This document shows, one piece after another, positions 18,439 through 63,826 of a stretch of 64,000 bases of DNA. Under the pieces are notes generated by a model. That model saw nothing but the letters and a program-made list of their open reading frames with translations. It had not been told where the DNA came from and made no database searches. The stretch is from positions 26,791-90,790 of the forward strand of contig JANQFL010000094.1 in the NCBI GenBank assembly GCA_028277845.1, in the 5' to 3' direction. Source of the DNA: Sneathiellales bacterium (GTDB lineage Bacteria > Pseudomonadota > Alphaproteobacteria > JANQFL01). The position numbers and the translations under genes are program-made. The number at the start of each line of letters is the position of its first letter. The first letter of the stretch is position 1.

Positions 18439-18463
18439 ACCGGTTCACTTGCTCTGGTAAACG

Positions 18464-27340: not shown

Positions 27341-27468
27341 GTTTCGATCAATTCCGCTTTCAAATCAGGCTGGAAACGGTTTGTACCCGGCAAAGGTGAA
27401 CCGTTTCCCAATAAACGTCGTGAAGCTTTATATAGGGATTGCCGCCCCGGTCAAAACACCCGGCCGGC

Positions 27469-28917: not shown

Positions 28918-29002
28918 GAATGCCTTCGTTCTTTGTCGTCTGTGTTCCCTGGGCCGGAACCTTGAGCCGTCAGGCCGGTACCCGATCCGTTGCAATCCGC
29001 GA

Positions 29003-29089
29003 TGGTGCGGGCGGAGGGACTCGAACCCCCACGACAGTGAAGTCACCAGGACCTAAACCTGGCGCGTCTACCAGTTCCGCCACGCCCGC
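29003..29089 (-). tRNA. tRNA-Leu: tRNA-Leu (anticodon TAG), long variable arm
   Basis: Reverse complement reads GCGGGCGTGGCGGAACTGGTAGACGCGCCAGGTTTAGGTCCTGGTGACTTCACTGTCGTGGGGGTTCGAGTCCCTCCGCCCGCACCA. Confidence 0.8.
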
Positions 29090-43908: not shown

Positions 43909-44015
43909 GGATTTCGGCCTGACGCCGGCGCCGGCCGCCGCCCGACCAAATCCGGCTGCTTGCCGACGATGTTTAGAACCGAGGCTTTGAAACCCACGCG
44001 AAAGAAGAGCTGCCG

Positions 44016-48040: not shown

Positions 48041-49330
48041 GTGACCGTCCAAGCCTATGCCGATATGGATGCCGCCGCCCTCAGTGCCGCGGCGGAGACC
48101 CTCAGCGAACGCCACCGCGAGCTGGCCAAACGCAACACCCAGATCGACATGACCCGGGGCAAGCCGGCGCCCGAACAGCTCGACCTGAGCAACGCTATCC
48201 TCACCATCGTCGGGCCCGACGACGTGTTCGGCGACGACGGCACCGATTACCGCAATTACGGTCTGGGTACGGGCACCCCCGAGGCCAAAAAGTTCTTCGC
48301 CGAATACATGGAGGTGACGCCGAAGGAGATCATCGTCGGCGGTAATTCCAGCCTCAACCTGATGTACGACACCCTGGCCGGCGCCGTGCTCTACGGCATG
48401 CCCGGCGGCAGCGAGCCGTGGGGCAAGGTGCCGGGCGGCGCCAAGGTGCTGTGCCCGGTACCGGGCTACGACCGCCATTTTGCCGTGTGCGAAACCCTGG
48501 GCATCGAAATGATCACCGTCGATCTGGACGACGACGGCCCCGACATGGACCGGGTCGAGGATTTGGCGGCCAACGACGCCGCCATCAAGGGGATCTGGTG
48601 CGTGCCGAAATATTCCAACCCCACCGGCATCACCTACTCGGACGCGGTTGTCGACCGGCTCGCCGGCATGAAAACCGCGGCGGCCGATTTCCGCATCCTG
48701 TGGGACAACGCCTACGCGGTGCATCACCTGGGCGGCGGCGTTGCCACGGTGAAGAATATCCTGGCGGCGTGCCGCGCCGCCGGCAACGAGGACCGGGCGC
48801 TGATGTTCGGCTCCACGTCCAAAATCACCCACGCCGGGTCGGGCATCGCCGTCCTGGCGGCGTCGGAGAGCAACATCGCCGATGCGTCGAAAAAGATGGG
48901 CGTGGCCACCATCGGGCCGGACAAGATCAACCAGGCGCGGCATGTGAAATTTTTCGGCGACCTGGACGGCCTGCGCGCCCACATGGACCGGCACGCCGCG
49001 ATCATCGCGCCCAAGTTCGCCGCCGTGCTGGATGCCCTGGAAAACCACCTGGGCGGCAAGGGCCTGGCGACGTGGAGCAAACCGCAGGGCGGTTACTTCG
49101 TCAGCGTCGACGTGCCGGACGGCTGCGCCAAGCGCGTGGTCGCATTGGCCGCCGAAGCGGGCGTCAAGATGACCGGCGCCGGCGCCACGTTCCCGTACGG
49201 CAAGGACCCGCGCGACCGCAATCTGCGCATCGCCCCGACCATGCCGTCACCGGACGACATCGCCAAGGCCATGGACGTGATCTGCGCGAGTATCGAGCTG
49301 GCGGCGGTGGAGAAGCTGCGGGCGGGTTAA
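48041..49330 (+). CDS. PLP-dependent aminotransferase class I/II family protein
   Basis: 429 aa with a candidate PLP-lysine in GSTSKITHAGSG. The exact subfamily is unclear. Confidence 0.6.
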   Translation: MTVQAYADMDAAALSAAAETLSERHRELAKRNTQIDMTRGKPAPEQLDLSNAILTIVGPDDVFGDDGTDYRNYGLGTGTPEAKKFFAEYMEVTPKEIIVGGNSSLNLMYDTLAGAVLYGMPGGSEPWGKVPGGAKVLCPVPGYDRHFAVCETLGIEMITVDLDDDGPDMDRVEDLAANDAAIKGIWCVPKYSNPTGITYSDAVVDRLAGMKTAAADFRILWDNAYAVHHLGGGVATVKNILAACRAAGNEDRALMFGSTSKITHAGSGIAVLAASESNIADASKKMGVATIGPDKINQARHVKFFGDLDGLRAHMDRHAAIIAPKFAAVLDALENHLGGKGLATWSKPQGGYFVSVDVPDGCAKRVVALAAEAGVKMTGAGATFPYGKDPRDRNLRIAPTMPSPDDIAKAMDVICASIELAAVEKLRAG

Positions 49331-49704
49331 GCCTCGAGGCGTCCCCGCCATGCCAGCAAAAAGGCGCCGCCGAACGCCACTTCGATGACGACGGCGAACC
49401 AGATGCCGGGCCCCGCGTGGCCACGGACAAACTCGAATACGCCCATGCAGGCCAATCCCGCCATCGCCACGGCCATGCCGGCGCTCACGGCCCGGCGGGC
49501 CTCCGACGGTGGCGCGGTGCGAATCAACAGATTGACGGTACCGAGGCCGAGAAACAGCATCGCCGCCCGTTTCGCCAACAGGTCCGAGGTGTCCGTTTGC
49601 ACCATCGCAAACAGCCGGTAGACGATTTCCGGAAGAAACAGCAGACAGGCGGACAGCAGAAAGCACAGCACGGCAGCGGCCGTGCTCAAGCTACGGAACG
49701 ACAT
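49327..49704 (-). CDS. DUF4345-like small membrane protein
   Basis: Four hydrophobic segments. The start was chosen at MSFRSLSTAAAVLCF. The track ORF begins at 49803. Confidence 0.5.
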   Translation of the reverse strand: MSFRSLSTAAAVLCFLLSACLLFLPEIVYRLFAMVQTDTSDLLAKRAAMLFLGLGTVNLLIRTAPPSEARRAVSAGMAVAMAGLACMGVFEFVRGHAGPGIWFAVVIEVAFGGAFLLAWRGRLEA

Positions 49705-49799
49705 GATCGGACCTTTTTTTCGTCGAACGCCATACGCTATCGCACCGCCGGCAGTCCCGCCATGTGGCGAAGTGGCGCGAGCCGCAAGGAGCGGGCTCC

Positions 49800-50552
49800 T
49801 CAAGCGATCAGCAGCCCGCCGTTCACCGGCAGCACGGCGCCGGTCATGTAGGACGAGAGGTCGGAGGCCAGGAACAGGCAGACATTAGCGACGTCGTCCG
49901 AGGTGCCCAGGCGCCCCATGGGCACCGTCGCGGCGATGGCGTCCTTGTCTGCGCGGGTCATGGCGCCCCTGGTGAAGTCGTTGTCGATGACGCCGGGCGC
50001 GACGGCGTTGGCGCGGATGCCGTCCGGCGCCAGTTCGCGGGCCAGGGCCCTGGCCAGGCCAAAGAGGCCCGACTTGGCGGCGGCGTAGTGGGAGCGGCCG
50101 AACAACCCGCCGCCGGCCTGGCCGGCGATGGACGACATGAGGACGATCGACCCGTTGCCCGCCGTCTTCATGTGCGGGATAACCGCCTGGGCCATGTTGA
50201 AGTTGCCCCGCAGGTTGACGTCGAGCACCTCGTCGTACTCGTCCCGGCCGATGTCCAGCACCGGCGTGCCGTGGACCACGCCGGCATTGCCGACGAGGAT
50301 ATCGGGAGCCCCAAACGCCGCGGCGGCGTGGTCGACGGCGGCAAGGCACGCCGCCTTGTCCCGCACGTCGCAGGCGATCCCCAGGCTATCGCCATCCAAA
50401 TCGGCGGCCGCCGAAGCGGAATCGGTCTCCGGCAAATCGAGCACGGCGACACGGGCGCCATGACGGACGAACAGCCGCGCCGTCGCGAACCCGATACCGG
50501 AACGGGTGCCGCCGCCCGTGATCACCGCGCTGCGGCCCTCGAGTAGTGCCAT
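49800..50552 (-). CDS. SDR-family oxidoreductase
   Basis: ITGGGTRSGIGFATA glycine motif and a YAAAK active site. The true start is MALLEGRSAV at 50552. Confidence 0.8.
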   Translation of the reverse strand: MALLEGRSAVITGGGTRSGIGFATARLFVRHGARVAVLDLPETDSASAAADLDGDSLGIACDVRDKAACLAAVDHAAAAFGAPDILVGNAGVVHGTPVLDIGRDEYDEVLDVNLRGNFNMAQAVIPHMKTAGNGSIVLMSSIAGQAGGGLFGRSHYAAAKSGLFGLARALARELAPDGIRANAVAPGVIDNDFTRGAMTRADKDAIAATVPMGRLGTSDDVANVCLFLASDLSSYMTGAVLPVNGGLLIA

Positions 50553-50709
50553 GGATGCATTCTCCCGCTGTCCATCCCCAGGCAGGCGCAATGCCACCGC
50601 CCCCATCGACTTTCCCCGGCATTCAGGGCCTTTGTTGCGCGATCTGTCACGAAAAATCTTCGTATTAACCCTAATTGTTGGTTACCACGCCATTTGGTAA
50701 TGCTAATCT

Positions 50710-50722
50710 GTTGATATTCAAC
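50710..50722. promoter_or_regulatory. 13-bp palindrome GTTGA-TAT-TCAAC in the AT-rich promoter region of the giant gene
   Basis: Inverted 5-bp arms with a 3-bp spacer about 95 bp upstream of the ATG. Nearby TTGGT(T/A)A direct repeats. Confidence 0.35.
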
Positions 50723-50815
50723 GTTAGGTGGGCAAGCGCTCACTGACGAAAATGTCCGGATACCTGGTCGTGGGTAGGTCAAAACCGGCGTAGTTTATGG
50801 GGGTAGGAGATCTCG

Positions 50816-53800
50816 ATGACTTCGAGACTGTTTGCGTTCGCGGCCAGTGCGTTTTCCGGCGAGTACGATTGGTGGCAATGGCGGGCCGGCGCGGGTGAGT
50901 TCCATTCGCCGTTCGGTTGGCGGCCGGGCGGTGTGTCAGCCACAGTCGGCACCTTCGAAGTCGCCGGCAGCATGGCGGCCCTGCCGACGGATCCCCGCTT
51001 CTCCGATCAGTGGCATCTTCAGAACACCGGCCAGAACGGCGGCACGGCGGGTGTCGACATCAACGTCGTACCGGTCTGGGACGATTATACCGGCCAGGGC
51101 GTCACCATCGGTATCGTCGATTCCGGTGTGCAGTACACCCATCCGGACCTCGCGCCCAACTACAACACATCGATCGACTACGATGCCTGGGGGCGGGATG
51201 ACGACCCGGCGCCCAACAGCAGCGAAGATCACGCGACGGCGACCACCGGCACCGCGGCCGCCGCGGCCAATAACGGCACCGGCGTGGTCGGTGTCGCCCA
51301 TGGTGCCGAGGTGGCCGGCTTCCGCATGGACTTCGACAGCGGCACCCAGGGGCAGATCGCCGACAACATGGCCCGGCAGGTGGACGTCGACATCTCCAAC
51401 AACAGTTGGGGTTACGGCGGCTACTTTTTCGACGATTTCGACTCCAGCACTTTCGCCGCGTCGGCGGCCGGCATCGAAAACGCCGTCTCCGCGGGGCGCG
51501 GCGGCTTGGGCACGGTGTTCGTCTTCGCCGCCGGCAACGACGGCGACAGCGGCCAGGACGTCAATTATCACAGCTTCCAGAACTCGCCGTATACCATCGC
51601 CGTCGGCGCCGTCGACAATACGGGCGCCCGGGCCGATTTCAGCACGCCCGGCGCGGCACTGCTGGTCTCGGCCCCCGGTGTGGATATCGTCACCACGGAC
51701 AAGACCGGCAGCGGCGGGTACGTCTCCGGCGATTACGTCACCATCGACGGCACGTCGTTCTCGTCGCCCATCGTCGCGGGCACCGTGGCGCTCATGCTCG
51801 AAGCCAACCCGAACCTGGGTTACCGCGACGTCCAGGAAATCCTCGGCTATTCGGCCAGGTCGGACAAGCTGACCGGCTCGTCGTGGCAGATCAACGGCGC
51901 CGAAAACTGGAACGGGGGCGGCCTGCATGTCAGTCACGATTTCGGCTTCGGCCTGGTCGACGCCCACGCGGCGGTCCGGCTGGCCGAAACGTGGACCCTG
52001 CAGCACACCTACAGCAACCTCGCCTCCCATTCGACGGTCGCGCAGGTCAATCAGGCGATCAACGACTTCCAGCCCGTCTATTCGACCATCACCGTCGCGG
52101 ACACCGGGGCGCTGCAAATCGATCACGTCAGGGTCGACCTGGACATCGATCACACCTGGGTCGGCGACCTCCACATCACGCTGACGTCCCCCGACGGCAC
52201 CGAGAGCGTCCTGATCAACCGGCCGGGCAAGACGTCGTACAATCGATACGGCACCAGCCGGGACGACATCAAATTCGAGGTGACCAGCACCCAGTATTGG
52301 GGCGAAAACGGCGTCGGCGACTGGACCCTGAGAGTGAACGATGCCGTGTCCGGCGATCAGGGCACATTCAACGATTGGACCCTGACGCTGGAAGGCGATC
52401 CGGTCACCGACGATGACCTCTATGTCATCACCGACGAGTTCGTCGCCGCCGGCAATTCCGGTTTCACCATCGACGACAGCGCCGGAACCGATACGGTCAA
52501 CGCCGCCGCCGTGACGACGGATACGGTCCTCAATCTCACGCCCGGGCTCATGAGCAGTATCGCCAACGGCAGCTTCTATCTCGACCCGGCGACACTGATC
52601 GAAAACGCTTACACCGGCGACGGCAACGACCAGCTCATCGGCAACACCGCCGACAACGTCTTGGACGGCGGCCGGGGCGACGACAATCTGTTCGGCGGCC
52701 TCGGTAATGACGAACTGATCGGCGGCGCCGGCGACGACGTCATGGAAGGTGGCGAGGGAGAGGACGTCGCCGTTTTCTCGGGCAACCTCGCCGATTACGA
52801 CATCGTCGTCGACAACGCCATTATCACCGTCACCGATCTGAACGCCGGCGATCGCGATGACGGCACCAATACCCTGACCGGCATCGAGGGCGCCCAGTTC
52901 GCCGATCAATACGTCTCGTTCAATTTCGAGCCGCCGGACAATGTCCCACCGGTCGCGGTCGACGACGCATTGGCGGCCACTGAAGACACGGCCCTGACAT
53001 TCGGCGCCACGGATCTGCTGGCCAACGACAGCGATGCCAATGGCGACGGCCTGTCGCTGACATATTTCACCCAGCCGGCCCATGGCGCGTTGGCGGACAA
53101 TGGCGACGGCACGCTGACCTACACCCCGGACGCCGATTATTTCGGCAGCGATAACTTCACGTACACCGTATCGGACGGCTACGTCACCGACACCGGCACC
53201 GTGGCCATCACCGTCGCCCCGGTCAATGACCAGCCGGTCGCCGCGGACGACAGTACTTATACCCATGAAAATACGCCGCTGGTGATCGATACCTCCAGCC
53301 TGCTTGGCAACGACACCGATGTGGACGGTGACACACTCTCCATTACTGCCTTGTCACAGCCGGGTAATGGAAGCGTGGTCGACAACGGCGACGGCACGCT
53401 CACATACACACCAAACGCGGAATACTTCGGCGACGACAGTTTTACCTATACCGTTTCCGACGGTCAGGGGGCATCGGACACGGCCACCGTCGACGTCAGA
53501 GTCATATTCGTCAACAACCCGCCGGTCGCGGTTGATGACACCGCGACGACCGATGAAGACCAAACCATCACTATTCCGATCGCGACCCTGCTTGGAAACG
53601 ACAGCGACGCCGATGGGCATGCGCTTGAGATATATAGCCTCAGCAATCCGAACAACGGAAGCGTATACAAGAACACCTCCGCCGGTACCGTCGTATATCG
53701 CCCCAACCCGGACTTTAACGGCACGGACACATTCACATACAAAGCGTTTGACGGCTACAACACTAGCAATACAGCCACCGTTACCATAACAGTCAACCCA

Positions 53801-56800
53801 GTCAATGACGCACCGACGGCGAACGCCGACAGTATCGTCACCGACGAAGACACGCCGGTGGCTTTCTCATCGGTCGCCTTGCTGGCCAACGATACCGATG
53901 CCGAAGGAGACAACCTGATCATCGTCGGTGTCAGCGATGGATCCGACGGCACGGTCAGCGACAATGGTGACGGCACGTACACCTACACGCCGAACGCAGA
54001 TTTCGCTGGCCTTGACACGCTGACCTACAGCGTTGAAGACGGTCGGGGCGGCGTCAGCAACGGCACGATCACCGTCACGGTGAACAGTATCAATGATAAG
54101 CCGGTTGCCGTTGACGACAACCTAGTCACCGACGAGGACACCGCCTTTGTCATCGCCGCTGCTGATTTGCTGGCAAACGACAGTGATCCCGACGGCGATA
54201 CCTTGACGCTGACCAGCATCTCGACGGCAACCAATGGCCACCTCCATGACTTTGGCGACGGGACGTATAATTACCGGCCGAGCCAGGATTTTTACGGCAC
54301 CGATCAACTGACCTATACGGTCAGCGATAGTCAAGGCAACTCCGATACCGCCACGGTCACCATCACGGTCAATTCAGTTAACGACAGGCCGTATACCCAA
54401 GACGATGCCTTCGTCACCCATCAAAACGATCCGGTAACATTCACCAACGCCCAACTGCTCGCCAATGATATCGACCGGGAGGGTGACACGCTTGAAGTAA
54501 CCTATGTGCATCTGGTTGCACACGGAGAATTGGTTGACAACGGGGACGGCACATACACCTACACACCGGCCTATGGCTTTTCGGGAGAAGACTGGGCTTG
54601 GTACGGCATCGTCGACAGCAATGGAGGCACGAATTTCGACTCAGGCCGTGTTTCCTTCGATGTCCAATTGGATCAGAACAATATCGAACCGGTTGCCGGC
54701 GACGACTTCTTCGTCACCAACAAGGACGCGGCACTGGTCATCAGTGCTGCCGACTTGCTTTCCAATGATACGGATGCGGACGTCAATGACGCACTCACCG
54801 TTTGGAGCCACATGCAACCGAACAACGGTAGCGTGGTCGATAACGAGGACGGCACGTTCACGTACACCCCGAATGCGGGATTTGTCGGCACGGACCAGTT
54901 CGAATACTGGCTGTTTGACGGCAACCATGTCCTGAACGGCAAAAGCATTGGACGCGTCTTCGTTACAATCAATCCGGACAACATCACGCCGGTAGCTGGT
55001 GATGACACCGTCACCACGGACGAAGACACACCCATTATCATCGCAACAGCCGACCTGCTGGCCAATGATGGTGACGGCGATGGCGATGCGCTGTCCATCA
55101 CTACGATCTCACAAGGACAGAACGGCTCGCTGACGGACAATGGCGACGGCACGTTTACCTATACGCCAAACGCCCATTTCCATGGCTCCGACAACCTGAC
55201 TTACAACGTCACCGATGGCAAGGGTGGCAACGACACGGCAACGGTCGACATTACCGTCAACTCGGTCAACGATATTCCTGTCGCCGTCGACGATACATAC
55301 GGATCCGAAGAAGATACACCGCGAACCCTGTATGCCGCTCAATTCACGCATAATGATGTGGACGATGATGGTGATCCGCTGACGATCACGTTCTTATCAC
55401 AGGGCGAGCACGGCACCATTATCGACAATGGAGACGGCACATACACCTACACGCCCGACGCCGACTATTACGGACCGGAGACGTTCACCTACATCGTATC
55501 CGACGGCAATGGCGGCAGTGATACCGGCACGATGACCTACACTGTGTATGCAGTCAACGACTACCCGGTCGCCGTGGATGACACTTTCTCCACGTACAAG
55601 AATACCTCTCTGGGCTTCACTGCCAATGATCTGTTGGCCAACGACTACGACATCGAAGGCGACCCGCTGTCGATTGAACACATCTGGACACCTCCCAATG
55701 GGTCGATAGTCGACCATGGCGACGGAACCTATACATACACCCCCAATAATGGTTTTGTCGGAAACGACACCTTCCGCGTTCGTGTATCGGAGATCAACGA
55801 CGACCATTTAACCAACGACTCGTTCATCACCGTCGTTGTCACACCGGAACCTCCCGCGGTATCGGCAGCGGACGATACCGTCAGAACCGAAGAAGATTCA
55901 TCGGTCATCATCGCCGCGGCCGACCTGCTGACCAACGACGTCGATCTCGAGGGCGACGATTTATCGATCACCGATCTTACATCAACCAGCAATGGCACGC
56001 TGATCGACAATGGCAATGGCACCTACACCTACACGCCAATTGCCGATTTCAACGGCAGCGACAGCTTTACCTATACTGCCTCGGACGGTAATGGCAACAG
56101 CGACACCGCCACCGTCCGTATCACGATCGACCCCGTCAACGACGTACCGGTCGCCGCCGACGACGCGGTCACGACGGACGAAGACACGCCGCTGATCATG
56201 GCCGCCGCCACACTGACCGGCAACGACAGCGATGCCGACGGCGACGCGCTGACGATTACCGCGGTATCGGACGGGGCCAACGGCAGCGTCGCGCTGAACG
56301 GTGACGGTTCGGTGACATACACCCCCGACGCCAACTTCAACGGCAGCGACAGCTTCTCGTACACGGTGTCCGACGGCAATGGCGGCGCCGACACGGCCAC
56401 GGTCTCGGTCACAATCAACCCGGTCAACGACGCCCCCATCGTGCCGGACGTGTACCTGACGGTGGATGAAGACCAGTTCAACTACGTTTCGGCCGCCGAC
56501 CTGCTGGCGAACGTCACCGATATCGAAGGCGACGTGGACCCCGGCGACTGGCAGCCGATCACCTGGTCCGAACCGGCGCACGGCACCATATGGACGTCCA
56601 CCACAAGCGGCAGCGGGAGCGGAAGCGGCTACGGTGGTCAGTTTGATTACGGAGGCGTAGGCGGTATCGGCAGCTGGGACGGGATCGGCAGCGGGCTCGG
56701 ATTCGGCGGAAGCATAGGCGGAAGTACCGATGTCTTTATCCCGTCGGAAATCGTAAGTCTCGGTTTCGGACCGCGTGAACAAGACCAGGCGGACGCGGGC

Positions 56801-59800
56801 CAGGGGGAATTGCGGGCCATGGACGCGTCCCCCTTGTACATCAACTATTCGCCGGACCCGGATTACAACGGCACGGATCAATACACCTTCACGGTGACCG
56901 ACGCCAATGGCGCCTCGGGCAGCGGCACCGTGTACATCACCATCAATCCGGTCAACGACGCGCCGGTGGCGGCGGACGACACCGTGACCACCCAGCAGGG
57001 CGCGGCCGTGATCGCCACGCCGCTGGCCAACGACGGCGATGTCGACGGCGACGCGCTGAACATCAGCGGCTTCACCCAGGCGGCCAACGGCACCGTCGCC
57101 GACAACGGGGACGGCACGCTCACCTATACGCCCTACGCCGACTTCTTCGGGCTCGACAGTTTCACCTACACGATTTCCGACGGTCAGGGCGGCAGCGATA
57201 CCGCCACCGTCGGTGTCACCGTCGACGAGTTGCCGCCCAACACGGTCAGCTACGCCGACGAGGGCGCCGGCCTCACCGCCACATTGACCAGCGATGCGTT
57301 CGTCATGTCGACGAACGGTGTCGGCAATACCCCCCTCACCGGCGAGTTCCGGGAAGATGACCTGGTCGTCTGGGACGGTTCGACCCATAACCGTTTTCTC
57401 AACGCAGACGACATCGGCCTCGACGCCAACATCGATGCCCTGTTCGTCCGATCCAATGGCAATATCGTTTTCTCCACGTCAAGCTCCGGCAATCTGAACG
57501 GCATCGGCAATTTCGGCGACGAAGACCTGATCGAATGGGACGGCACGGCGTTTTCCATGTGGTTCGACGCCGGCGCCAACGGCATCGACACCGGCGAGGA
57601 CATCGACGCCGTTCATGTGCTCGAAAACGGCAATCTGATCCTGTCGACCACCGGCGGCGCCAGCGTCGACCAGAACGGCGGCGGCACCCTCGGTCTCGAG
57701 GACGGCGATCTGTTCGAATTCAACCCCGGCACCACCACGGTCGACGGACTGGCGGCGAAGACCGCCCGCCTGGTCTTCTCGGAGGACGATTTCCTCGGCA
57801 ACGAGGATATCGATGCCACCTCGCAATTGGCCGACGGCACCACGGTCCTTTCGACCATGGGTTCCGCCACCCTGCCCGTCTCGCAATCCTTCGCCGATGA
57901 AGACCTGGTGCAATGGGACGGCACGGCGGCCGGCAAGCTGTTCGACGGCGGCGGCAATGACCTCGAGACCTACACCGAAGACATCGACGCCGTGCACATG
58001 CTGGTCAACACCGGCGCGGCGGCGGGCGCCGATTACGCCGGCATCAACAATCTGATCGGCACGGCCTTCGACGATACCCTCGTCGGCCACGACGCCGAGA
58101 ACCGGCTGGAAGGCGGCGGCGGCGACGACATTCTGATCGGCGGCGGCGGCAACGACATTCTCGTCGGCGGCGCGGGGGCCGATATTCTCATCGGTGGCCT
58201 GGGGGCCGACACGTTCGTCTTCACCGCCGCCGACCTCGGCACCGGTCTCGACAAGATCTACCGCTACGACCAGACCGGCGTTCCCGTCGAGCAAAGCGAC
58301 AACCTGGATTTGAGCGGCCTCTTCCTGGGCGGGCCCGTGCCCGACCGGGATACGATCGACCAGTTCCTCAGATTTCAGGACGACGGCGACTGGGTGATCA
58401 TGCAGGTCGATACCGACGGCAGCGGCGGCTCCGCCGGCTTCCAGGACCTCGCCCATTTCACCGTCCGGCCGTTTGCCATTAGCGACCTGCCGGGTCTGAT
58501 GGACAACGGCAAGATCATCGTCGGCACGCCCAACGAAAACCCGGTGGCGGGGAACGACACGGCGGCGACCGACGAAGATACCCCGCTGATCATCGCCGCC
58601 GCCGATCTGCTGGCCAACGACAGCGACGGAGACGGCGACAGCCTGTCGGTCACGGCCATCTCGAACGGCGCCCACGGGAACCTGAGCGACAACGGCAACG
58701 GCACGTTCACCTATACGCCCGATGCCAACTACAACGGGGCCGACAGCTTCACCTACACGGTATCCGATGGCCGTGGTGGTAGCGATACCGGCACGGTTGA
58801 TATTTCGGTTGTGTCGGTCAACGACGCACCATCGGCAGAGAACGACATCCACTACACAGACGAAAACGTCCCTATAATCATAAGTATCGCCGATCTGCTG
58901 TCCAACGACTCGGACATCGACGGCGGGACTCTGTCTGTCGTCAGTTTCACACAAGGCGTTATTGGCAGTGTCGTCGACAATGGCGACGGCACGATAACCT
59001 ATACGCCCGAACCGAACCGATGGGGCGCCGACCGCTTCACCTACACCGTTTCGGACAATCAGGGCGGCAGCGATACGGCAGAGGTCATTGTCGACATCAC
59101 CATGGTCAATTATCGGCCGACTGCGGTTGACGACAGTGTTTCAACCGACGAGGACACGGGGATTGTCATTACCTACGCCAGCCTGCTTGCCAACGATTAC
59201 GATGTCGATGGCGATTCGCTGGGATTCCGTTGGTATGACCAGCCGCAGAACGGACATATCGTTGATGACCATTACGGGACCCTGACATACACGCCCGACG
59301 CCAACTTCTTCGGCACCGATACATTCGTCTACTACGCCAACGATGGCAGGGTGTTCAGTAATCCGGCCATCGTGACGGTGACCGTCAACCCCATCGACGA
59401 CGCGCCAGTCGCCACCGATGACAGTGTTTCCACCCTCGAAGACAGGCCATTGATCATCGGTGCCAATGTTTTGGCAAACGACATCGACGTCGACGGCGAC
59501 GGGTTAACCATCACCGGCGTGTCACAAGGAAACCATGGAACCGTTTCCAACAACGGTGATGGCACGTACACCTACACCCCGGATGCCGACTATGCCGGTC
59601 CGGACACAGTTACATACACGGTGTCAGATGGTCAGGGTGGCAGCGATATAGCCACTGTCGACATCACGTTGGATTCGGTTAATGACGAACCGGTCGCTGC
59701 AGACGACAACTTCTCAACGGACGAAGACCTTCCCTTGCTTGTCACCGTTGTCGATTTGTTGGCCAACGACAGTGATACAGAAGGCGACGGACTTAGTATT

Positions 59801-62800
59801 GCCGCGGTAACACAAGGCGTAAACGGCAGCGTTATCGACAATGGCGACGGCACATTCACCTACACGCCGAATGCCGACTTCCATGGATCCGACAGCTTCT
59901 CTTACACCGTTTCCGATGGTAATGGCGGCAGCGATACAGCGACCGTCGCCATCACAGTCAATCCGGTCAACGACGCGCCAGTGGCTGCAGACGACGCCTT
60001 GTGGCTCGACGAAGATACGACGCTGACCATCACTACGGCTGATTTAATCGGCAACGACGGCGACGCCGAAGGTGACAGCCTGACCGTAACGTCGGTATCC
60101 CAAGGCACGCATGGCAGCGTCACCAACAATGGCGACGGCACCTTCACATATAGCCCCGGCATCAATTACAACGGCGCCGACAGCCTGACCTACACGGTCT
60201 CCGACAGCAATGGTGGCGAAGCTACTGCAAGCATCTCCATCACCGTAGACCCTGTCAACGACGCGCCTGTAGCGGCGGATAATTCCTTCTTCTCGCAAGA
60301 GGACGTCCCGACTTCATTGTCGCTCGGCCTACTGCTTGCGGGAGCAACCGACGTTGACGGAGATAACTTGATACTCGCCGGGTATACGCAACCGGTCTAC
60401 GGCACCCTCACCGAAAATAGTCATGGCCATTTCGTCTATCTGACGAACGCCAATTTCTACGGCACCGACAGTTTCACTTACACCGTTTCTGACGGCAACG
60501 GTGGCAGCGACACCGCCACAATGACCGTCAATGTTCTCCCGGTAAACGACTGGCCAATTCCGACTGACGATGACGTGGTGGCTGACGAGGACACGCCGCT
60601 GATTATTGCTACGGCCGATCTTCTCGCCAATGACACAGATATCGAGGGTGACAGCCTTTCATTCGGTAGCCTCATTGAAGGCTCGTACGGAACCGTCGTC
60701 AACAATGGCGATGGCACGATCACGTATACGCCGGATTCCAACTTCAATGGTTTCGATTCGTTCCGATACTTTGTCCGCGATCACAGCAGCACACAGATCG
60801 GCACTGTTAATGTCACTGTCAATCCAGTCAACGATGCACCGACGGCAGAAATCGATTCGTTCTTAACGCCGACGAATACGTCTGCAATCATCAGCGCGGC
60901 GCAACTTGTTTCCAACGACACCGATATTGACGGTGACAGCCTGTCGGTGACCGGATACACGCAAGGATCCAATGGCAACATCACCGACAACGGGGACGGA
61001 ACGTTCACATATACCCCGGACACGGATTTCGTCGGCTTCGACACTTTCGATTACACCGTTTCGGATGGCAGTGACAGCAGCACGGCAACGGTCACCGTAA
61101 CTGTCGGGCTTGGCAACTTTGCGCCTGTTGCAAACGACGATTCATTTACGACCGACGAGGATTCGCCGTTCATCTTTACGAAAGCGGACTTGCTCGCCAA
61201 CGACGTCGACCTCAACGGCGACTTCCTAAATCACGCCGGTTTCCGTTCGCCTCTGCCCCGCGACTTTGATTTGGAATGGATTGAAGGCCACACTTGGTCC
61301 TTCGTCCCGGATGCCGATTTCGCCGGCGTCGCACACTTTTATTATCAAATCTATGACTCGTCCGGAGAATGGAATGAAGGCCAGGTCACCGTCACCGTCA
61401 ACCCGGTCAACGACGCACCCGTCGCTGTCGACGACATTGTCAAAGCTCAAATTGACACGCCACTCGTCATCGACGGTACAGATCTTGTTGCCAATGACAG
61501 CGATATTGACGGTGACGACCTGACGGTCGCCGGTTTCACACAAGCAGCCAACGGAAGTGTTACGGACAATGGCAACGGCACATTAACCTACACCGCAAAT
61601 ACCGGATTTAGCGGCACTGATGTCTTTACCTATTCTACCTCCGACGGTAACGGCGGCAGTGATGTCGCCACAGTCAATGTCCTAGTAAGTGCGATCGACG
61701 CAGTCGATGATAACGTTACTACAAACGAAGATGCCCCACTGGTCATCGCCTTTGCCGATCTACTGGCCAATGACGACGGGAATGGCAATGACCTGACGCT
61801 GACCGATTTCTCTCAAACTTCCAACGGCACCCTCACTGACAATGGCGACGAAACCTTCACCTACACGCCGGACGCCGATTACTACGGGTCCGACAACTTC
61901 ACCTACACCGTCTTTGACGGCAGCGATATCAGTTTCGCCACCGTCGCTGTCACCGTCGACCCAGTTAATGACGCGCCGGTTGCGGTGGACGCCCTTCTCA
62001 CCGCGATTGAAGATTCGACACGCACGATTCAGCCGTTCAGATTCTTACACAACGACACCGATCCCGATGGCGACAGCCTAACAATAGTCGACGTTACCCA
62101 AGCACAGCACGGCAGTGTCACCCTCAATGCTGACGGCACGGTCACATACATTTCGGATGCCGACTACAGCGGCCCCGACACCTTCACCTATACGATTTCG
62201 GATGGTGAGCTGACCTCCACTGCCAACGCTTTTGTTGACGTGCAGGCCCGCAATGATCGGCCGGTGGCAGCCGACGACAGTGTCACAACCAACGAAAACG
62301 CACCGGTTACCTTCAGTGCAGCAAGCCTGCTGGCCAACGATACCGATGTCGACGGCGACGCCTTAAGCATCATTGGGTTCAGTCAAGCCACGGGCGGATC
62401 GGTCAGCAATAATGGCGACGGCACGCTGACCTATACGCCGAACTCCGGCTTTACCGGGACTGACAGCTTCACTTACACCGTCTCCGACGGCAATGGCGGG
62501 TCGGATACGGCGACGGTTCATGTGACCGTCGGGCCGGCCGGCGGGCGGATCGATGACGAGACGTTCTCCTATGTCGATGCCAGTACCGGCGTCACCGCCA
62601 ATCTGGGCAGCGAGGCGTTTGTCTTCTCGACCTACCGCGGCGGTTCGGTCGACGGTGTCGGCGGCTTCGCCGACGAGGACCTGTTGCTGTGGGACGGTTC
62701 CGAATACAGCAAATTGCTGGACGGCGGATCGGTGGGGCTGAGTGCGTCGGATGAAAACATCGATGCCCTGTTCGTCCGCGCCAACGGCAATATCGTGTTC

Positions 62801-63826
62801 TCGACCACCGGCGCCGGCAGTGTGGCCGGTCTCGGCGCCTTCGCCGACGAGGACCTGATCGAATGGGACGGCACAAGCTTCTCCATGCTGTTCGACGGCA
62901 GCGAAAGTAGCCTGGGCAGCGCCGTGGATATCGACGGCGTGCATATTCTGGACAACGGCAACCTCGTTCTCTCCACCGTGTCCGATCACGCCCTGCCGGA
63001 CGGCGCCGGCGGTACGCTGGCCGCGCTGGATGGCGACCTGATCGAGTACAATCCGGGATCGGCCGCCGTCGACGGACTGGCGCCGCAAGCGGCGCGCATC
63101 GTCTTCGCCGAGGACACCTTCGTCAGCAGCGATGATATCGATGGTGCCTCGATGCTGTCCGACGACACCATGGTCATAACGGTCAAGGGCTCGGAAGGCC
63201 TGCCCGGCTTGGGTTCGTTCTACGACGAAGACCTGGTTTCCTGGGACGGCGTCACGGGCGATCTGTACTTCGACGGCAGCACCCACGGATTGTCGTCGTC
63301 GAGCGAAGACACCGACGCTGTGCACGTGCTCGATAACAGCGGCGAGGCCGTGGGCGACGACTTCTCCGGCCTCATCAATCTGATCGGTTCGGACCATGGC
63401 GACATTCTGGTCGGCAACGGCGCCGGCAATACCCTGACGGGCGGCGGCGGCGGCGACATCCTGATCGGCGGTCTCGGCGCGGACATTTTGGCCGGCGGCG
63501 CCGGCGGCGACACGCTGATCGGCGGGCTGAACGGCGATACCTACGCCTTTGCCGCCAGCGACGGCGTGGACACCGTCATCGGCTTCGACCGGGCCGAGGG
63601 CGACGTGCTCGACTTCCGCGACCTGTTCGACGGCGGCCCCGCCCCGGACGCCGCGACCGTCGGTCAATTCCTCGACGTCGCGGTGGGGGACGACAGCGCG
63701 ACCCTGCGTGTCGACATGGACGGCGGCGGCAACGGCTTTACCGATCTGGCCACTTTCGCCGGCGTGCCGTTCGGCAACGCGGATCTCGCGTCCATGCTGC
63801 AGGACGGGACGATCCTGGTGATCTGA
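50816..63826 (+). CDS. Giant (4336 aa) secreted multidomain protein: kexin-like S8 peptidase + P-domain, RTX repeats, about 28 VCBS/cadherin-like tandem repeats, two T1SS-type C-terminal modules
   Basis: A single uninterrupted frame with a GGAG ribosome-binding site 8 nt upstream. The N-terminus has DPRFSDQWHLQN, GIVDSG (Asp), DHATATTGTAAA (His) and GTSFSSP (Ser), followed by a proprotein-convertase P-domain (DLHITLTSPDGTES...WTLTLEG). Then come RTX GGxGxD nonapeptides and about 95-aa repeats with the ANDxDxDGDxL...DNGDGTxTYTPxxxFxGxDSFTYTVSDGxGGSDTATV...VNDAPVA pattern. The C-terminus resembles a type I secretion target domain. Confidence 0.85.
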   Translation: MTSRLFAFAASAFSGEYDWWQWRAGAGEFHSPFGWRPGGVSATVGTFEVAGSMAALPTDPRFSDQWHLQNTGQNGGTAGVDINVVPVWDDYTGQGVTIGIVDSGVQYTHPDLAPNYNTSIDYDAWGRDDDPAPNSSEDHATATTGTAAAAANNGTGVVGVAHGAEVAGFRMDFDSGTQGQIADNMARQVDVDISNNSWGYGGYFFDDFDSSTFAASAAGIENAVSAGRGGLGTVFVFAAGNDGDSGQDVNYHSFQNSPYTIAVGAVDNTGARADFSTPGAALLVSAPGVDIVTTDKTGSGGYVSGDYVTIDGTSFSSPIVAGTVALMLEANPNLGYRDVQEILGYSARSDKLTGSSWQINGAENWNGGGLHVSHDFGFGLVDAHAAVRLAETWTLQHTYSNLASHSTVAQVNQAINDFQPVYSTITVADTGALQIDHVRVDLDIDHTWVGDLHITLTSPDGTESVLINRPGKTSYNRYGTSRDDIKFEVTSTQYWGENGVGDWTLRVNDAVSGDQGTFNDWTLTLEGDPVTDDDLYVITDEFVAAGNSGFTIDDSAGTDTVNAAAVTTDTVLNLTPGLMSSIANGSFYLDPATLIENAYTGDGNDQLIGNTADNVLDGGRGDDNLFGGLGNDELIGGAGDDVMEGGEGEDVAVFSGNLADYDIVVDNAIITVTDLNAGDRDDGTNTLTGIEGAQFADQYVSFNFEPPDNVPPVAVDDALAATEDTALTFGATDLLANDSDANGDGLSLTYFTQPAHGALADNGDGTLTYTPDADYFGSDNFTYTVSDGYVTDTGTVAITVAPVNDQPVAADDSTYTHENTPLVIDTSSLLGNDTDVDGDTLSITALSQPGNGSVVDNGDGTLTYTPNAEYFGDDSFTYTVSDGQGASDTATVDVRVIFVNNPPVAVDDTATTDEDQTITIPIATLLGNDSDADGHALEIYSLSNPNNGSVYKNTSAGTVVYRPNPDFNGTDTFTYKAFDGYNTSNTATVTITVNPVNDAPTANADSIVTDEDTPVAFSSVALLANDTDAEGDNLIIVGVSDGSDGTVSDNGDGTYTYTPNADFAGLDTLTYSVEDGRGGVSNGTITVTVNSINDKPVAVDDNLVTDEDTAFVIAAADLLANDSDPDGDTLTLTSISTATNGHLHDFGDGTYNYRPSQDFYGTDQLTYTVSDSQGNSDTATVTITVNSVNDRPYTQDDAFVTHQNDPVTFTNAQLLANDIDREGDTLEVTYVHLVAHGELVDNGDGTYTYTPAYGFSGEDWAWYGIVDSNGGTNFDSGRVSFDVQLDQNNIEPVAGDDFFVTNKDAALVISAADLLSNDTDADVNDALTVWSHMQPNNGSVVDNEDGTFTYTPNAGFVGTDQFEYWLFDGNHVLNGKSIGRVFVTINPDNITPVAGDDTVTTDEDTPIIIATADLLANDGDGDGDALSITTISQGQNGSLTDNGDGTFTYTPNAHFHGSDNLTYNVTDGKGGNDTATVDITVNSVNDIPVAVDDTYGSEEDTPRTLYAAQFTHNDVDDDGDPLTITFLSQGEHGTIIDNGDGTYTYTPDADYYGPETFTYIVSDGNGGSDTGTMTYTVYAVNDYPVAVDDTFSTYKNTSLGFTANDLLANDYDIEGDPLSIEHIWTPPNGSIVDHGDGTYTYTPNNGFVGNDTFRVRVSEINDDHLTNDSFITVVVTPEPPAVSAADDTVRTEEDSSVIIAAADLLTNDVDLEGDDLSITDLTSTSNGTLIDNGNGTYTYTPIADFNGSDSFTYTASDGNGNSDTATVRITIDPVNDVPVAADDAVTTDEDTPLIMAAATLTGNDSDADGDALTITAVSDGANGSVALNGDGSVTYTPDANFNGSDSFSYTVSDGNGGADTATVSVTINPVNDAPIVPDVYLTVDEDQFNYVSAADLLANVTDIEGDVDPGDWQPITWSEPAHGTIWTSTTSGSGSGSGYGGQFDYGGVGGIGSWDGIGSGLGFGGSIGGSTDVFIPSEIVSLGFGPREQDQADAGQGELRAMDASPLYINYSPDPDYNGTDQYTFTVTDANGASGSGTVYITINPVNDAPVAADDTVTTQQGAAVIATPLANDGDVDGDALNISGFTQAANGTVADNGDGTLTYTPYADFFGLDSFTYTISDGQGGSDTATVGVTVDELPPNTVSYADEGAGLTATLTSDAFVMSTNGVGNTPLTGEFREDDLVVWDGSTHNRFLNADDIGLDANIDALFVRSNGNIVFSTSSSGNLNGIGNFGDEDLIEWDGTAFSMWFDAGANGIDTGEDIDAVHVLENGNLILSTTGGASVDQNGGGTLGLEDGDLFEFNPGTTTVDGLAAKTARLVFSEDDFLGNEDIDATSQLADGTTVLSTMGSATLPVSQSFADEDLVQWDGTAAGKLFDGGGNDLETYTEDIDAVHMLVNTGAAAGADYAGINNLIGTAFDDTLVGHDAENRLEGGGGDDILIGGGGNDILVGGAGADILIGGLGADTFVFTAADLGTGLDKIYRYDQTGVPVEQSDNLDLSGLFLGGPVPDRDTIDQFLRFQDDGDWVIMQVDTDGSGGSAGFQDLAHFTVRPFAISDLPGLMDNGKIIVGTPNENPVAGNDTAATDEDTPLIIAAADLLANDSDGDGDSLSVTAISNGAHGNLSDNGNGTFTYTPDANYNGADSFTYTVSDGRGGSDTGTVDISVVSVNDAPSAENDIHYTDENVPIIISIADLLSNDSDIDGGTLSVVSFTQGVIGSVVDNGDGTITYTPEPNRWGADRFTYTVSDNQGGSDTAEVIVDITMVNYRPTAVDDSVSTDEDTGIVITYASLLANDYDVDGDSLGFRWYDQPQNGHIVDDHYGTLTYTPDANFFGTDTFVYYANDGRVFSNPAIVTVTVNPIDDAPVATDDSVSTLEDRPLIIGANVLANDIDVDGDGLTITGVSQGNHGTVSNNGDGTYTYTPDADYAGPDTVTYTVSDGQGGSDIATVDITLDSVNDEPVAADDNFSTDEDLPLLVTVVDLLANDSDTEGDGLSIAAVTQGVNGSVIDNGDGTFTYTPNADFHGSDSFSYTVSDGNGGSDTATVAITVNPVNDAPVAADDALWLDEDTTLTITTADLIGNDGDAEGDSLTVTSVSQGTHGSVTNNGDGTFTYSPGINYNGADSLTYTVSDSNGGEATASISITVDPVNDAPVAADNSFFSQEDVPTSLSLGLLLAGATDVDGDNLILAGYTQPVYGTLTENSHGHFVYLTNANFYGTDSFTYTVSDGNGGSDTATMTVNVLPVNDWPIPTDDDVVADEDTPLIIATADLLANDTDIEGDSLSFGSLIEGSYGTVVNNGDGTITYTPDSNFNGFDSFRYFVRDHSSTQIGTVNVTVNPVNDAPTAEIDSFLTPTNTSAIISAAQLVSNDTDIDGDSLSVTGYTQGSNGNITDNGDGTFTYTPDTDFVGFDTFDYTVSDGSDSSTATVTVTVGLGNFAPVANDDSFTTDEDSPFIFTKADLLANDVDLNGDFLNHAGFRSPLPRDFDLEWIEGHTWSFVPDADFAGVAHFYYQIYDSSGEWNEGQVTVTVNPVNDAPVAVDDIVKAQIDTPLVIDGTDLVANDSDIDGDDLTVAGFTQAANGSVTDNGNGTLTYTANTGFSGTDVFTYSTSDGNGGSDVATVNVLVSAIDAVDDNVTTNEDAPLVIAFADLLANDDGNGNDLTLTDFSQTSNGTLTDNGDETFTYTPDADYYGSDNFTYTVFDGSDISFATVAVTVDPVNDAPVAVDALLTAIEDSTRTIQPFRFLHNDTDPDGDSLTIVDVTQAQHGSVTLNADGTVTYISDADYSGPDTFTYTISDGELTSTANAFVDVQARNDRPVAADDSVTTNENAPVTFSAASLLANDTDVDGDALSIIGFSQATGGSVSNNGDGTLTYTPNSGFTGTDSFTYTVSDGNGGSDTATVHVTVGPAGGRIDDETFSYVDASTGVTANLGSEAFVFSTYRGGSVDGVGGFADEDLLLWDGSEYSKLLDGGSVGLSASDENIDALFVRANGNIVFSTTGAGSVAGLGAFADEDLIEWDGTSFSMLFDGSESSLGSAVDIDGVHILDNGNLVLSTVSDHALPDGAGGTLAALDGDLIEYNPGSAAVDGLAPQAARIVFAEDTFVSSDDIDGASMLSDDTMVITVKGSEGLPGLGSFYDEDLVSWDGVTGDLYFDGSTHGLSSSSEDTDAVHVLDNSGEAVGDDFSGLINLIGSDHGDILVGNGAGNTLTGGGGGDILIGGLGADILAGGAGGDTLIGGLNGDTYAFAASDGVDTVIGFDRAEGDVLDFRDLFDGGPAPDAATVGQFLDVAVGDDSATLRVDMDGGGNGFTDLATFAGVPFGNADLASMLQDGTILVI
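52940..57240 (+). repeat. Tandem array 1 of about 14 VCBS/cadherin-like repeats of about 95 aa (protein-coding) inside the giant gene
   Basis: A recurrent (P)VAxDD...LLANDxDxDGDxL...VNDxP period is visible in the translation. The repeats have diverged at the DNA level. Confidence 0.8.
58535..62540 (+). repeat. Tandem array 2 of about 14 VCBS/cadherin-like repeats of about 95 aa inside the giant gene
   Basis: The same repeat family as array 1, with GC about 47-55%, clearly below the protease and RTX segments. Confidence 0.8.

What the first reader, a model, noticed from the sequence alone, without database searches (positions are those of the whole stretch)
50816..63826. 13-kb single gene: a kexin-like proprotein convertase fused to an RTX/VCBS giant adhesin-like T1SS substrate
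One 4336-aa ORF combines a complete eukaryote-type subtilisin S8B (kexin/furin-like) catalytic domain and P-domain with about 28 calcium-binding VCBS/cadherin-like repeats and RTX nonapeptide blocks. Giant RTX adhesins are common, but a proprotein-convertase head on one is not an architecture I can place in a described family. The catalytic triad and oxyanion residues (D in GIVDSG, H in DHATATTG, N in NNSWGYGG, S in GTSFSSP) are all intact, which suggests an active secreted or surface-tethered protease. No ABC, membrane-fusion or TolC genes lie within the window, and the downstream neighbour is an Lrp/AsnC regulator.
Basis: partly seen in the sequence, partly recalled or inferred. Interest (0 to 1): 0.8.

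Follow-up and report, generated by a model that had tools for sequence, protein, structure and literature searches.

The report
Giant secreted furin-like protease-adhesin
One intact 13-kb gene encodes a 450-kDa calcium-binding secreted protein with a furin-like serine protease at its tip, but such protease-headed giants occur in many bacteria and were catalogued in 2010, so it is an unusually large member of a known, unstudied family.

Summary
ORF 50816-63826 (+) is uninterrupted and encodes 4336 aa. It has an S8 catalytic domain and a P-domain, with furin and Kex2 as best solved relatives. It also has three RTX blocks, exactly 28 tandem-95/Big_9 repeats and a C-terminal type I secretion (T1SS) target domain. 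No T1SS genes lie in the window.

The novelty claim does not hold. The S8+P+RTX head has over 3,100 homologues and 8,220 50%-identity clusters at E<=1e-30. Many relatives are also giants of 2,600-6,100 aa with the same head. One 3,315-aa homologue sits directly after a T1SS ABC transporter and HlyD gene. A 2,911-aa Beijerinckia example next to T1SS genes is listed in the supplement of a 2010 RTX review.

- The oxyanion Asn is N241 (FAAGNDG), not the N in NNSWGYGG.
- There is no prodomain.
- Seven of eight acidic substrate-pocket residues of furin are replaced, so dibasic specificity is unlikely.
- The repeats are tandem-95, not VCBS.

Newly seen: the gene has two units. A complete propeller + RTX + secretion-domain module sits internally (aa 2141-2570), about 50% identical to the terminal one. 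Verdict: a real but ordinary new member of a known kind.

The parts
50816..63826 (+). Whole gene: 4336 aa, 449.8 kDa, pI about 4.05, no Cys
50816..50983 (+). N-terminal leader, aa 1-56. Trp-rich, predicted disordered, no family hit; not a subtilase prodomain.
   Evidence: pLDDT <50 for aa 1-53; no Pfam hit; weakly alignable from Met1 with relative P0244; family N-termini vary from 0 to about 280 aa
50984..51985 (+). S8 catalytic domain, aa 57-390. D102 (51119-51121), H139 (51230-51232), oxyanion N241 (51536-51538), S314 (51755-51757).
   Evidence: Pfam 5e-46; furin 1p8j 1.4e-56, Kex2 9e-55; invariant residues; model TM 0.87-0.89 to furin
51986..52405 (+). P / Homo-B domain, aa about 391-530
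   Evidence: PF01483 1.7e-24, aa 435-525; aligned through furin residue 465 of the chain
52406..52933 (+). Beta-roll linker plus RTX block 1, aa 531-706; canonical nonapeptides at aa 618-644
   Evidence: HemolysinCabind; serralysin C-terminal-like match aa 531-679; regex; beta-roll strands in the model
52934..57235 (+). Tandem-95/Big_9 repeats 1-14, aa 707-2140
56558..56800 (+). Gly/Ser-rich insertion of about 75 aa splitting repeat 13, aa about 1915-1995
57236..58015 (+). Four-repeat beta-propeller-like module, copy 1, aa 2141-2400; no Pfam or NCBIfam family
   Evidence: (D10-D13); by homology to copy 2, which was modelled
58016..58525 (+). RTX block 2 (aa 2433-2468) plus the INTERNAL T1SS C-terminal-target-like domain (aa about 2471-2570). 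It ends ...MDNGKIIV and runs in frame into repeat 15 after only Gly-Thr.
   Evidence: TIGR03661 24.8 bits, above cutoff 17.6; 50% identity to the terminal module; DNA of the junction
58526..62533 (+). Tandem-95/Big_9 repeats 15-28, aa 2571-3906
62534..63331 (+). Four-repeat beta-propeller-like module, copy 2, aa 3907-4172
63332..63826 (+). RTX block 3 (aa 4209-4235) plus the terminal T1SS C-terminal target domain and stop codon

Best explanation
The gene encodes a very large, acidic, cysteine-free, calcium-dependent exoprotein. It is probably exported C-terminus first by a type I secretion system (T1SS) encoded elsewhere in the genome.

Shown: the domain order. It runs short disordered leader, furin-like S8 catalytic domain, P-domain, RTX beta-roll; then two consecutive units, each of 14 tandem-95/Big_9 repeats, a four-repeat beta-propeller-like module, an RTX block and a T1SS C-terminal target domain.

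Inferred:
- The terminal domain is the secretion signal.
- Extracellular Ca2+ folds the RTX blocks and repeats as they emerge.
- The protease head emerges last and folds without a prodomain, supported by its P-domain and the adjacent RTX roll, as in serralysin- or LipA-type T1SS enzymes.
- The product is an active serine endopeptidase held on a stalk roughly 100 nm long. Its two propeller modules bind a ligand or surface and so localise proteolysis.
- P1 preference is probably not Arg/Lys.
- The two-unit layout arose by an old in-frame duplication or fusion of the [repeats-propeller-RTX-secretion domain] unit.
For: - Intact ORF and domains.
- Furin/Kex2 are the best solved relatives (E 1e-56; model pLDDT 90.4, TM 0.87-0.89).
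- Triad and oxyanion Asn are invariant across 66 family members.
- T1SS hallmarks: TIGR03661 above cutoff; three RTX blocks, pI about 4.05 and 0 Cys; C-terminal model matches T1SS-secreted LipA, CyaA block V and AlgE R-modules.
- Comparative support: a 3,315-aa homologue (L008, head 51% identical) lies directly downstream of a C39-type T1SS ABC transporter and a HlyD protein. Beijerinckia Bind_3695 (2,911 aa, 'proprotein convertase P') is next to a T1SS ATPase and HlyD in the 2010 RTX survey.
- No prodomain: furin's mature N-terminus PTDPKFPQQWYL aligns to aa 57 PTDPRFSDQWHL. Some family members start at that motif. aa 1-53 are disordered.
- Specificity: furin D154, E230, D233, E236, E257, D258 and D306 align to S103, S175, Q178, I181, G201, G202 and H252; only D264 aligns to an acidic residue, D209. 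H252 is at least 90% conserved in the family.
- Duplication: the modules are 50% identical over 421 aa. Repeat 1 pairs best with 15 (61%) and repeat 14 with 28 (70%), against a mean of about 49%.
Against: - No T1SS ABC, MFP or TolC gene was found in the 64-kb window. Only 3 of 80 related loci have an ABC exporter within 10 kb. Linkage evidence for this gene is therefore indirect.
- Nothing shows expression, secretion or activity.
- A Sec signal peptide at MTSRLFAFAASAF could not be formally excluded, because no predictor was available.
- The specificity inference rests on one pairwise profile alignment at about 30% identity.
- The ligand of the propeller modules is unknown.
- The middle repeats of the two halves are not clearly colinear, so duplication and fusion of paralogous neighbours cannot be told apart.
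Confidence: 0.7

Rival explanations
1. Cell-surface-retained adhesin, LapA/MpIBP-like. The N-terminal protease head is made minutes before the C-terminal signal, folds in the cytoplasm and plugs the T1SS channel. The stalk and propellers then project outward, and the protease is not exposed, or acts only after release.
For: The layout resembles a giant RTX adhesin: long Ig-like repeat extender, then putative ligand-binding modules, then RTX and a secretion domain. The T1SS ABC next to the giant homologue L008 carries a C39-like domain, as do LapB-type exporters and also HlyB.
Against: There is no LapA-type retention module and no AA[G/V] LapG-type site in the first 150 aa. No LapG/LapD-like gene was found in the window. 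Short family members of 700-1,200 aa carry the same head and look like ordinary secreted enzymes. An invariant catalytic triad argues that the head works outside the cell.
Confidence: 0.15
2. Self-processing polyprotein. The S8 head, or another protease, cuts the chain, for example after the internal secretion-domain copy, and releases two or more products.
For: A complete module that normally ends a protein sits internally and passes the TIGR03661 cutoff. It joins the next repeat through only Gly-Thr. Autoprocessing by a built-in protease is known for MARTX toxins (established knowledge, not tested here).
Against: There is no sequence evidence for a cleavage site. The chain has no dibasic pair (about 1.6 expected by chance, so this is uninformative). 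Among the 482 fetched proteins and the related loci scanned with my narrow two-sequence HMM, no other protein has a similar internal copy, so no conserved processing logic is visible.
Confidence: 0.1
3. Artefact: two adjacent genes merged by an assembly or sequencing error at the internal secretion domain.
For: The internal module looks exactly like a protein C-terminus.
Against: No stop codon or frameshift is present. The second half starts in the normal register of a repeat, with no start codon or ribosome-binding context. The same 4336-aa product is on record from NCBI and from a Logan contig, although both may derive from the same reads. The two modules are only 50% identical at protein level, and DNA repeats are at most about 84% identical over at most 60 nt, so collapse is implausible.
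Confidence: 0.04

Closest known systems
Bacterial S8 + P-domain + RTX exoproteases. An unnamed, uncharacterised family, annotated 'S8 family serine peptidase' or 'subtilisin-like proprotein convertase family protein / Ca2+-binding RTX toxin-like protein'. Example: Beijerinckia indica Bind_3695.
   Same: The head is 47-63% identical over about 650 aa, with the same order S8, P-domain, RTX roll and no prodomain. Many members are giants with tandem-95 repeats. Some lie next to T1SS genes.
   Different: This protein forms a singleton 90%-identity cluster. Among the sequences fetched, it alone combines the head with the four-repeat propeller module and an internal second secretion module.
Eukaryotic proprotein convertases furin and Kex2 (MEROPS S8B)
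   Same: They are the best solved relatives by sequence and fold, covering both the catalytic domain and the P-domain. The triad and oxyanion Asn are conserved.
   Different: It has no prodomain and no Cys or disulfides. Seven of eight acidic subsite residues are replaced. It is fused to RTX blocks and repeats and is predicted to use T1SS rather than the secretory pathway.
Aeromonas sobria serine protease ASP (PDB 3hjr), a bacterial kexin-like subtilase
   Same: A bacterial S8 with a P-domain-like C-terminal domain.
   Different: It is a much weaker match (E 3e-28 against 1e-56; TMt 0.71). From my own knowledge, ASP has a signal peptide and needs the ORF2 chaperone; the PDB title of 3wqb supports the chaperone complex. 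It has no RTX.
Serralysin-type metalloproteases and family I.3 lipases (AprA, PrtA/ZapA, Serratia LipA)
   Different: The catalytic class differs (zinc metalloprotease or lipase against serine S8). They are 50-65 kDa enzymes without a repeat stalk.
Giant RTX adhesins (LapA, MpIBP, SiiE, Aeromonas hydrophila RTX adhesin)
   Different: The N-terminus here is a protease, not a retention module with a LapG site. No LapG/LapD-like gene was found in the window.

Membership tests
Kexin/furin-type subtilases (S8B) | Subtilase catalytic domain with Asp-His-Ser triad and oxyanion Asn | tested here: met
   D102, H139, N241 and S314 align to furin D153, H194, N295 and S368. They are invariant or nearly invariant in 66 homologues.
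Kexin/furin-type subtilases (S8B) | P / Homo-B domain directly after the catalytic domain | tested here: met
   PF01483 E 1.7e-24. The model superposes on furin catalytic plus P domains with TMt 0.87-0.89.
Kexin/furin-type subtilases (S8B) | N-terminal prodomain acting as intramolecular chaperone and removed autocatalytically | tested here: not met
   Only 56 residues precede the position of furin's mature N-terminus. They have no Pfam hit and are disordered in the model. Some family members have no extension at all.
Kexin/furin-type subtilases (S8B) | Acidic S1/S2/S4 subsites that select basic residues | tested here: not met
   Furin D154, E230, D233, E236, E257, D258 and D306 align to S, S, Q, I, G, G and H. 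Only D264 is kept as D209. This rests on an alignment, not on activity.
Kexin/furin-type subtilases (S8B) | Cleavage after paired basic residues | not testable with these tools
   Needs an enzyme assay.
RTX / T1SS substrates | Blocks of GGxGxDxUx nonapeptides | tested here: met
   PF00353 hits. Ten canonical nonapeptides lie in three blocks, at aa 618-644, 2433-2468 and 4209-4235.
RTX / T1SS substrates | Uncleaved C-terminal secretion domain | tested here: met
   TIGR03661 scores 35.4 bits against a cutoff of 17.6 at the extreme C-terminus. The fold matches the RTX caps of LipA, CyaA and AlgE.
RTX / T1SS substrates | Acidic, Cys-poor polypeptide without a Sec signal peptide | tested here: inconclusive
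   pI about 4.05 and 0 Cys. No signal-peptide predictor was available. The N-terminus is not conserved as a signal in the family.
RTX / T1SS substrates | Cognate ABC transporter, membrane-fusion protein and TolC-like channel | tested here: inconclusive
   None was found in the 64-kb window. They are present next to the giant homologue L008 and next to Beijerinckia Bind_3695. The rest of this genome was not available.
LapA-type retained RTX adhesins | N-terminal retention module with a LapG di-alanine cleavage site, plus LapG/LapD | tested here: not met
   There is no AA[G/V] in the first 150 aa. The N-terminus is the protease. No such genes were found in the window.
Tandem-95 repeat / Big_9 proteins | Tandem repeats of about 95 aa matching NF012211 / PF17963 | tested here: met
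   NF012211 E 1.3e-19, PF17963 E 7e-22. A self-built HMM finds 28 copies.
   The NCBIfam and Pfam scans of segments containing repeats returned tandem-95, Big_9 and Cadherin_4/5 and no VCBS model. Only some repeats were scanned against the libraries.

The most novel reading that the evidence does not exclude
The internal, complete copy of the secretion module (propeller + RTX + TIGR03661-type domain, aa 2141-2570) is functional rather than a relic. It might act as a second, internal T1SS recognition or Ca2+-ratchet element that helps export a 450-kDa chain in stages. Alternatively it might mark a site where the built-in furin-like protease cuts the chain, so that one gene yields two extracellular products. 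Under the same reading, this family would show how a kexin-like subtilase folds with no prodomain, with the RTX roll as cis-chaperone.
Probability: 0.1. Interest if true: 0.6.

Novelty: new member of a known kind. Interest (0 to 1): 0.3.

Why it matters
The gene itself adds little. It is a large, cleanly assembled example of a family that is abundant in Alphaproteobacteria and cyanobacteria, for which my limited literature searches found no experimental study. That family is closer in sequence and fold to eukaryotic furin and Kex2 than to Aeromonas ASP, the only bacterial kexin-like protease among the solved-structure hits. It lacks a prodomain and is apparently exported unfolded through T1SS. 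A specialist might use it to ask how a kexin-like fold forms without its intramolecular chaperone, and what a protease on a stalk roughly 100 nm long is for. The internal duplicate secretion module is a minor curiosity about how giant T1SS substrates grow.

Tried and rejected
- Assembly or frameshift artefact: rejected.
- Recent tandem duplication: rejected. The two units are only about 50% identical, and only the end repeats pair up.
- T1SS genes in the window: searched among the likely genes; none found.
- Getting the rest of the source contig (116,715 bp in NCBI): failed. The giant is on record only on a 13.9-kb Logan contig, and the Lon protein has no gene position on record.
- Exact look-ups of four neighbouring proteins: not in the collection, perhaps because of start-codon choice.
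- Organism: not in the GTDB representative set; the best head match is 58%. Lon places it among unnamed Alphaproteobacteria. The best hit from another organism is 86% identical and unnamed. Named relatives are at about 80%: Marinibaculum pumilum, Sneathiellaceae, Ferrovibrio.
- Orthologue with a split or unsplit junction: the metagenome scan found only other tandem-95 giants, with no match to the internal secretion domain or the propeller.
- Pfam and NCBIfam for the propeller module and the N-terminal leader: nothing.
- The afdb50 fold library was unavailable.
- Sigma-70-type promoter or intrinsic terminator upstream of the gene: none found by the simple scan of 50400-51000. The 3' end was not scanned.
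- Absence of dibasic pairs: not meaningful, since about 1.6 are expected.
- Literature: the main text of the 2010 RTX review does not discuss S8-type RTX proteases. Four searches found no paper that experimentally characterises the family. This is a limited search, not proof of absence.
Full report

Yes. Window 50816-63826 (+) is one uninterrupted reading frame of 4336 codons. AGGAG lies 6 nt upstream of the ATG. GC3 is 0.76, typical of the real genes in this window.

Pfam finds the following:
- Peptidase_S8, aa 93-379, E 5e-46.
- P_proprotein, aa 435-525, E 1.7e-24.
- HemolysinCabind.
- Big_9, Cadherin_5 and Cadherin_4 repeats.

NCBIfam finds the tandem-95 repeat NF012211. At the extreme C-terminus it finds the T1SS C-terminal target domain TIGR03661, at 35.4 bits against a cutoff of 17.6.

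The protein is 449.8 kDa with pI about 4.05. It has no cysteine and three short RTX blocks.

The identical 4336-aa product is on record from NCBI and from a Logan assembly contig. DNA repeats within the gene are only about 60-84% identical, so an assembly collapse or mis-join is unlikely.

**2. Genomic context**

The window is core chromosome. It holds a nuo operon, tig-clpP-clpX-lon and assorted metabolic genes and regulators. No ABC exporter, HlyD-type protein or TolC was found. The 3' neighbour on the minus strand reads like the C-terminal end of an Lrp/AsnC regulator; this was judged by eye only.

Lon identifies the host as an unnamed alphaproteobacterium. The best hit from another organism is 86% identical and unnamed. 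Named relatives are at about 80%: Marinibaculum pumilum, Sneathiellaceae and Ferrovibrio.

**3. The head**

Among solved structures, furin (1p8j, E 1.4e-56, aa 57-527) and Kex2 (E 9e-55) are far better matches than the bacterial kexin-like protease ASP (E 3e-28) or the subtilisins (about 1e-20).

An AlphaFold model of aa 1-700 has pLDDT 90.4 and pTM 0.90. It superposes on furin with TMt 0.87-0.89 at 30% identity.

D102, H139 and S314 align to furin D153, H194 and S368. They are invariant or nearly invariant in 66 homologues.

The oxyanion Asn is N241, in FAAGNDG, which aligns to furin N295.

Two defining convertase features are missing:
- **No prodomain.** Furin's mature N-terminus PTDPKFPQQWYL aligns to aa 57 PTDPRFSDQWHL. 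The 56 residues before it are disordered in the model and match no family. In relatives this extension varies from nothing to about 280 aa.
- **No acidic subsites.** The acidic residues that bind basic P1/P2/P4 side chains in furin (their roles are from my own knowledge) are mostly replaced. D154 aligns to S103, E230 to S175, D233 to Q178, E236 to I181, E257 to G201, D258 to G202 and D306 to H252. Only D264 is kept, as D209. H252 is conserved in at least 90% of the family.

So the head is furin-like in fold and domain organisation. It is probably not a dibasic-specific convertase.

**4.

After the P-domain comes a beta-roll with RTX block 1, at aa 531-706. Two consecutive units follow:
- Unit 1: repeats 1-14 (aa 707-2140), a module of about 250 aa (aa 2141-2400), RTX block 2, and a domain that passes the TIGR03661 cutoff at 24.8 bits (aa about 2471-2570).
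- Unit 2: repeats 15-28 (aa 2571-3906), a second copy of the module (aa 3907-4172), RTX block 3, and the terminal TIGR03661 domain.

The internal and terminal modules are 50% identical over 421 aa. The internal one ends ...MDNGKIIV. It runs in frame, through only Gly-Thr, into the normal start of repeat 15. The terminal one ends ...QDGTILVI-stop.

Repeat 1 is most similar to repeat 15 (61%) and repeat 14 to repeat 28 (70%). The overall mean is about 49%. This points to an old in-frame duplication, or a fusion, of the whole [14 repeats-module-RTX-secretion domain] unit. It is neither a recent event nor an artefact.

The 250-aa module consists of four repeats of about 60 aa, with the motif DEDLxxWDG...EDIDAVHVLxNGNIxxST. 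It has no Pfam or NCBIfam family. It also occurs as stand-alone PEP-CTERM proteins of about 336 aa.

Repeat 13 carries a Gly/Ser-rich insertion of about 75 aa.

**5. Is the architecture unusual?**

No. The evidence:
- The first 700 aa have over 3,100 homologues at E<=1e-10. The best 120 are 46-67% identical in the best local alignment. All carry Peptidase_S8, and all but one also carry P_proprotein, mostly with HemolysinCabind and often Peptidase_M10_C. About ten also carry Big_9/Cadherin_5.
- Against 1.84 billion cluster representatives, 8,220 clusters reach E<=1e-30. The top 150 include many giants with an N-terminal head, such as P0245 (4,354 aa), P0257 (4,848), P0261 (6,126), P0270 (3,710), P0314 (3,455) and P0318 (3,267). 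In some the head is internal or near the C-terminus (P0249, 7,932 aa; P0278; P0322).
- In one genome per species, at least 531 loci encode a relative. They are mostly Alphaproteobacteria (Rhodospirillales and related groups, Elioraea, Inquilinus, Minwuia, Bradyrhizobium, Sphingomonas) and cyanobacteria (Leptolyngbya, Nostoc), with a few Betaproteobacteria and Pseudodesulfovibrio.
- Of the best 80 loci, 13 have an open frame over 1,800 aa through the head. Several carry 8-19 tandem-95 repeats: L008, L067, L009, L034, L055 and L003.
- L008, from an uncultured Rhodospirillaceae genome, encodes a 3,315-aa homologue directly downstream of a C39-type ABC transporter and a HlyD-family protein.
- A 2008 survey of prokaryotic serine proteases already lists Subtilisin-P_proprotein architectures with haemolysin-type Ca-binding repeats (PMC2605481).
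- The supplement of the 2010 RTX review lists Beijerinckia indica Bind_3695, 'proprotein convertase P', 2,911 aa with 44 RTX repeats. It lies next to a T1SS ATPase and a HlyD protein. S8-type RTX proteins from Granulibacter, Silicibacter, Methylobacterium and Trichodesmium are listed too (PMC3034196).

Four searches found no paper that characterises any member experimentally. That search was limited.

What is particular to this gene: it forms a singleton 90%-identity cluster. Among the 482 proteins and about 155 related loci fetched, it alone joins the head to the propeller module and carries an internal secretion-domain copy. My HMMs for those parts were built from two sequences and are narrow. 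The closest head, P0244 (1,493 aa, 55% identical by BLASTP), shares the Trp-rich leader and a similar ...NGNLIV C-terminus, but has different repeats.

**6. How it most likely works**

Shown: the domain order, the intact active site and the T1SS-type C-terminus.

Inferred from what is established for RTX/T1SS substrates:
- Export is post-translational and C-terminus first, through an ABC/MFP/TolC system encoded elsewhere.
- Extracellular Ca2+ folds the RTX blocks and the Asp-rich repeats, which ratchets the chain outward.
- The protease head emerges last and folds without a prodomain, with its P-domain and the adjoining RTX roll as scaffold, as in serralysins and family I.3 lipases.

The 28 repeats would form a stalk on the order of 100 nm; this is my estimate from about 4-5 nm per Ig-like domain. 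The two propellers are plausible ligand-binding modules. The likely role is proteolysis localised to whatever the stalk binds.

Rivals:
- Surface retention with the head acting as a plug. There is no LapA-type retention module and no LapG site.
- Self-processing into two or more products. There is no direct evidence.
- A merged-gene artefact. The evidence is against it.

**7. Verdict**

The gene is a real, single, giant T1SS-type protein with a furin-like head. That architecture is common and already catalogued. It lacks two defining convertase features, and one catalytic assignment was wrong. It is a new member of a known kind, and its interest is modest.

Noticed in passing
window 57236-58015 and 62534-63331 (aa 2141-2400 and 3907-4172): A module of four repeats of about 60 aa each (DEDLxxWDG...EDIDAVHVLxNGNIxxST) has no Pfam or NCBIfam family. 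It is predicted to be a small beta-propeller. It also occurs as stand-alone PEP-CTERM proteins of about 336 aa, one of them named as from Phycisphaerae. It looks like an undescribed extracellular domain family.
   Followed up: partly
window ~56558-56800 (aa ~1915-1995): A Gly/Ser-rich low-complexity insertion of about 75 aa splits tandem-95 repeat 13 into two halves. It could be a flexible hinge or an extruded loop.
   Followed up: partly
L046; proteins P0249, P0278, P0322: In some giant relatives the S8-P head is not N-terminal. In L046 the Ser motif is at aa about 3794 of a 4,880-aa open frame. In P0249 (7,932 aa) the head is at aa 1364-1973. In P0278 and P0322 it lies near the C-terminus. 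The head therefore behaves as a mobile module within giant RTX proteins.
   Followed up: no
L008 1975-5545: A C39-domain ABC transporter (722 aa) and a HlyD-family protein (482 aa) lie immediately upstream of a 3,315-aa S8-P-headed homologue. Upstream of them is a TPR + tubulin-tyrosine-ligase-family protein.
   Followed up: partly
window 52000-62000: Inside the giant gene, G+C drops to 0.55-0.60 against 0.62-0.67 in the surrounding genes. GC skew is about -0.1 and AT skew up to +0.18. The Asp/Asn/Thr-rich composition is a likely cause; foreign origin was not tested.
   Followed up: no
window 42552-43922 (+), 49327-49803 (-), 6-656 (+), 2049-2789 (+), 37291-37668 (-): These ORFs have no Pfam hit at E<=1e-4. 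Some, such as 42552-43922, may not be real genes in this high-GC sequence.
   Followed up: no
window 5237-19368 (-) and 22653-29046 (-): A nuo (complex I) operon and a tig-clpP-clpX-lon cluster. This is ordinary core chromosome, so the giant gene is not on an obvious mobile element.
   Followed up: partly
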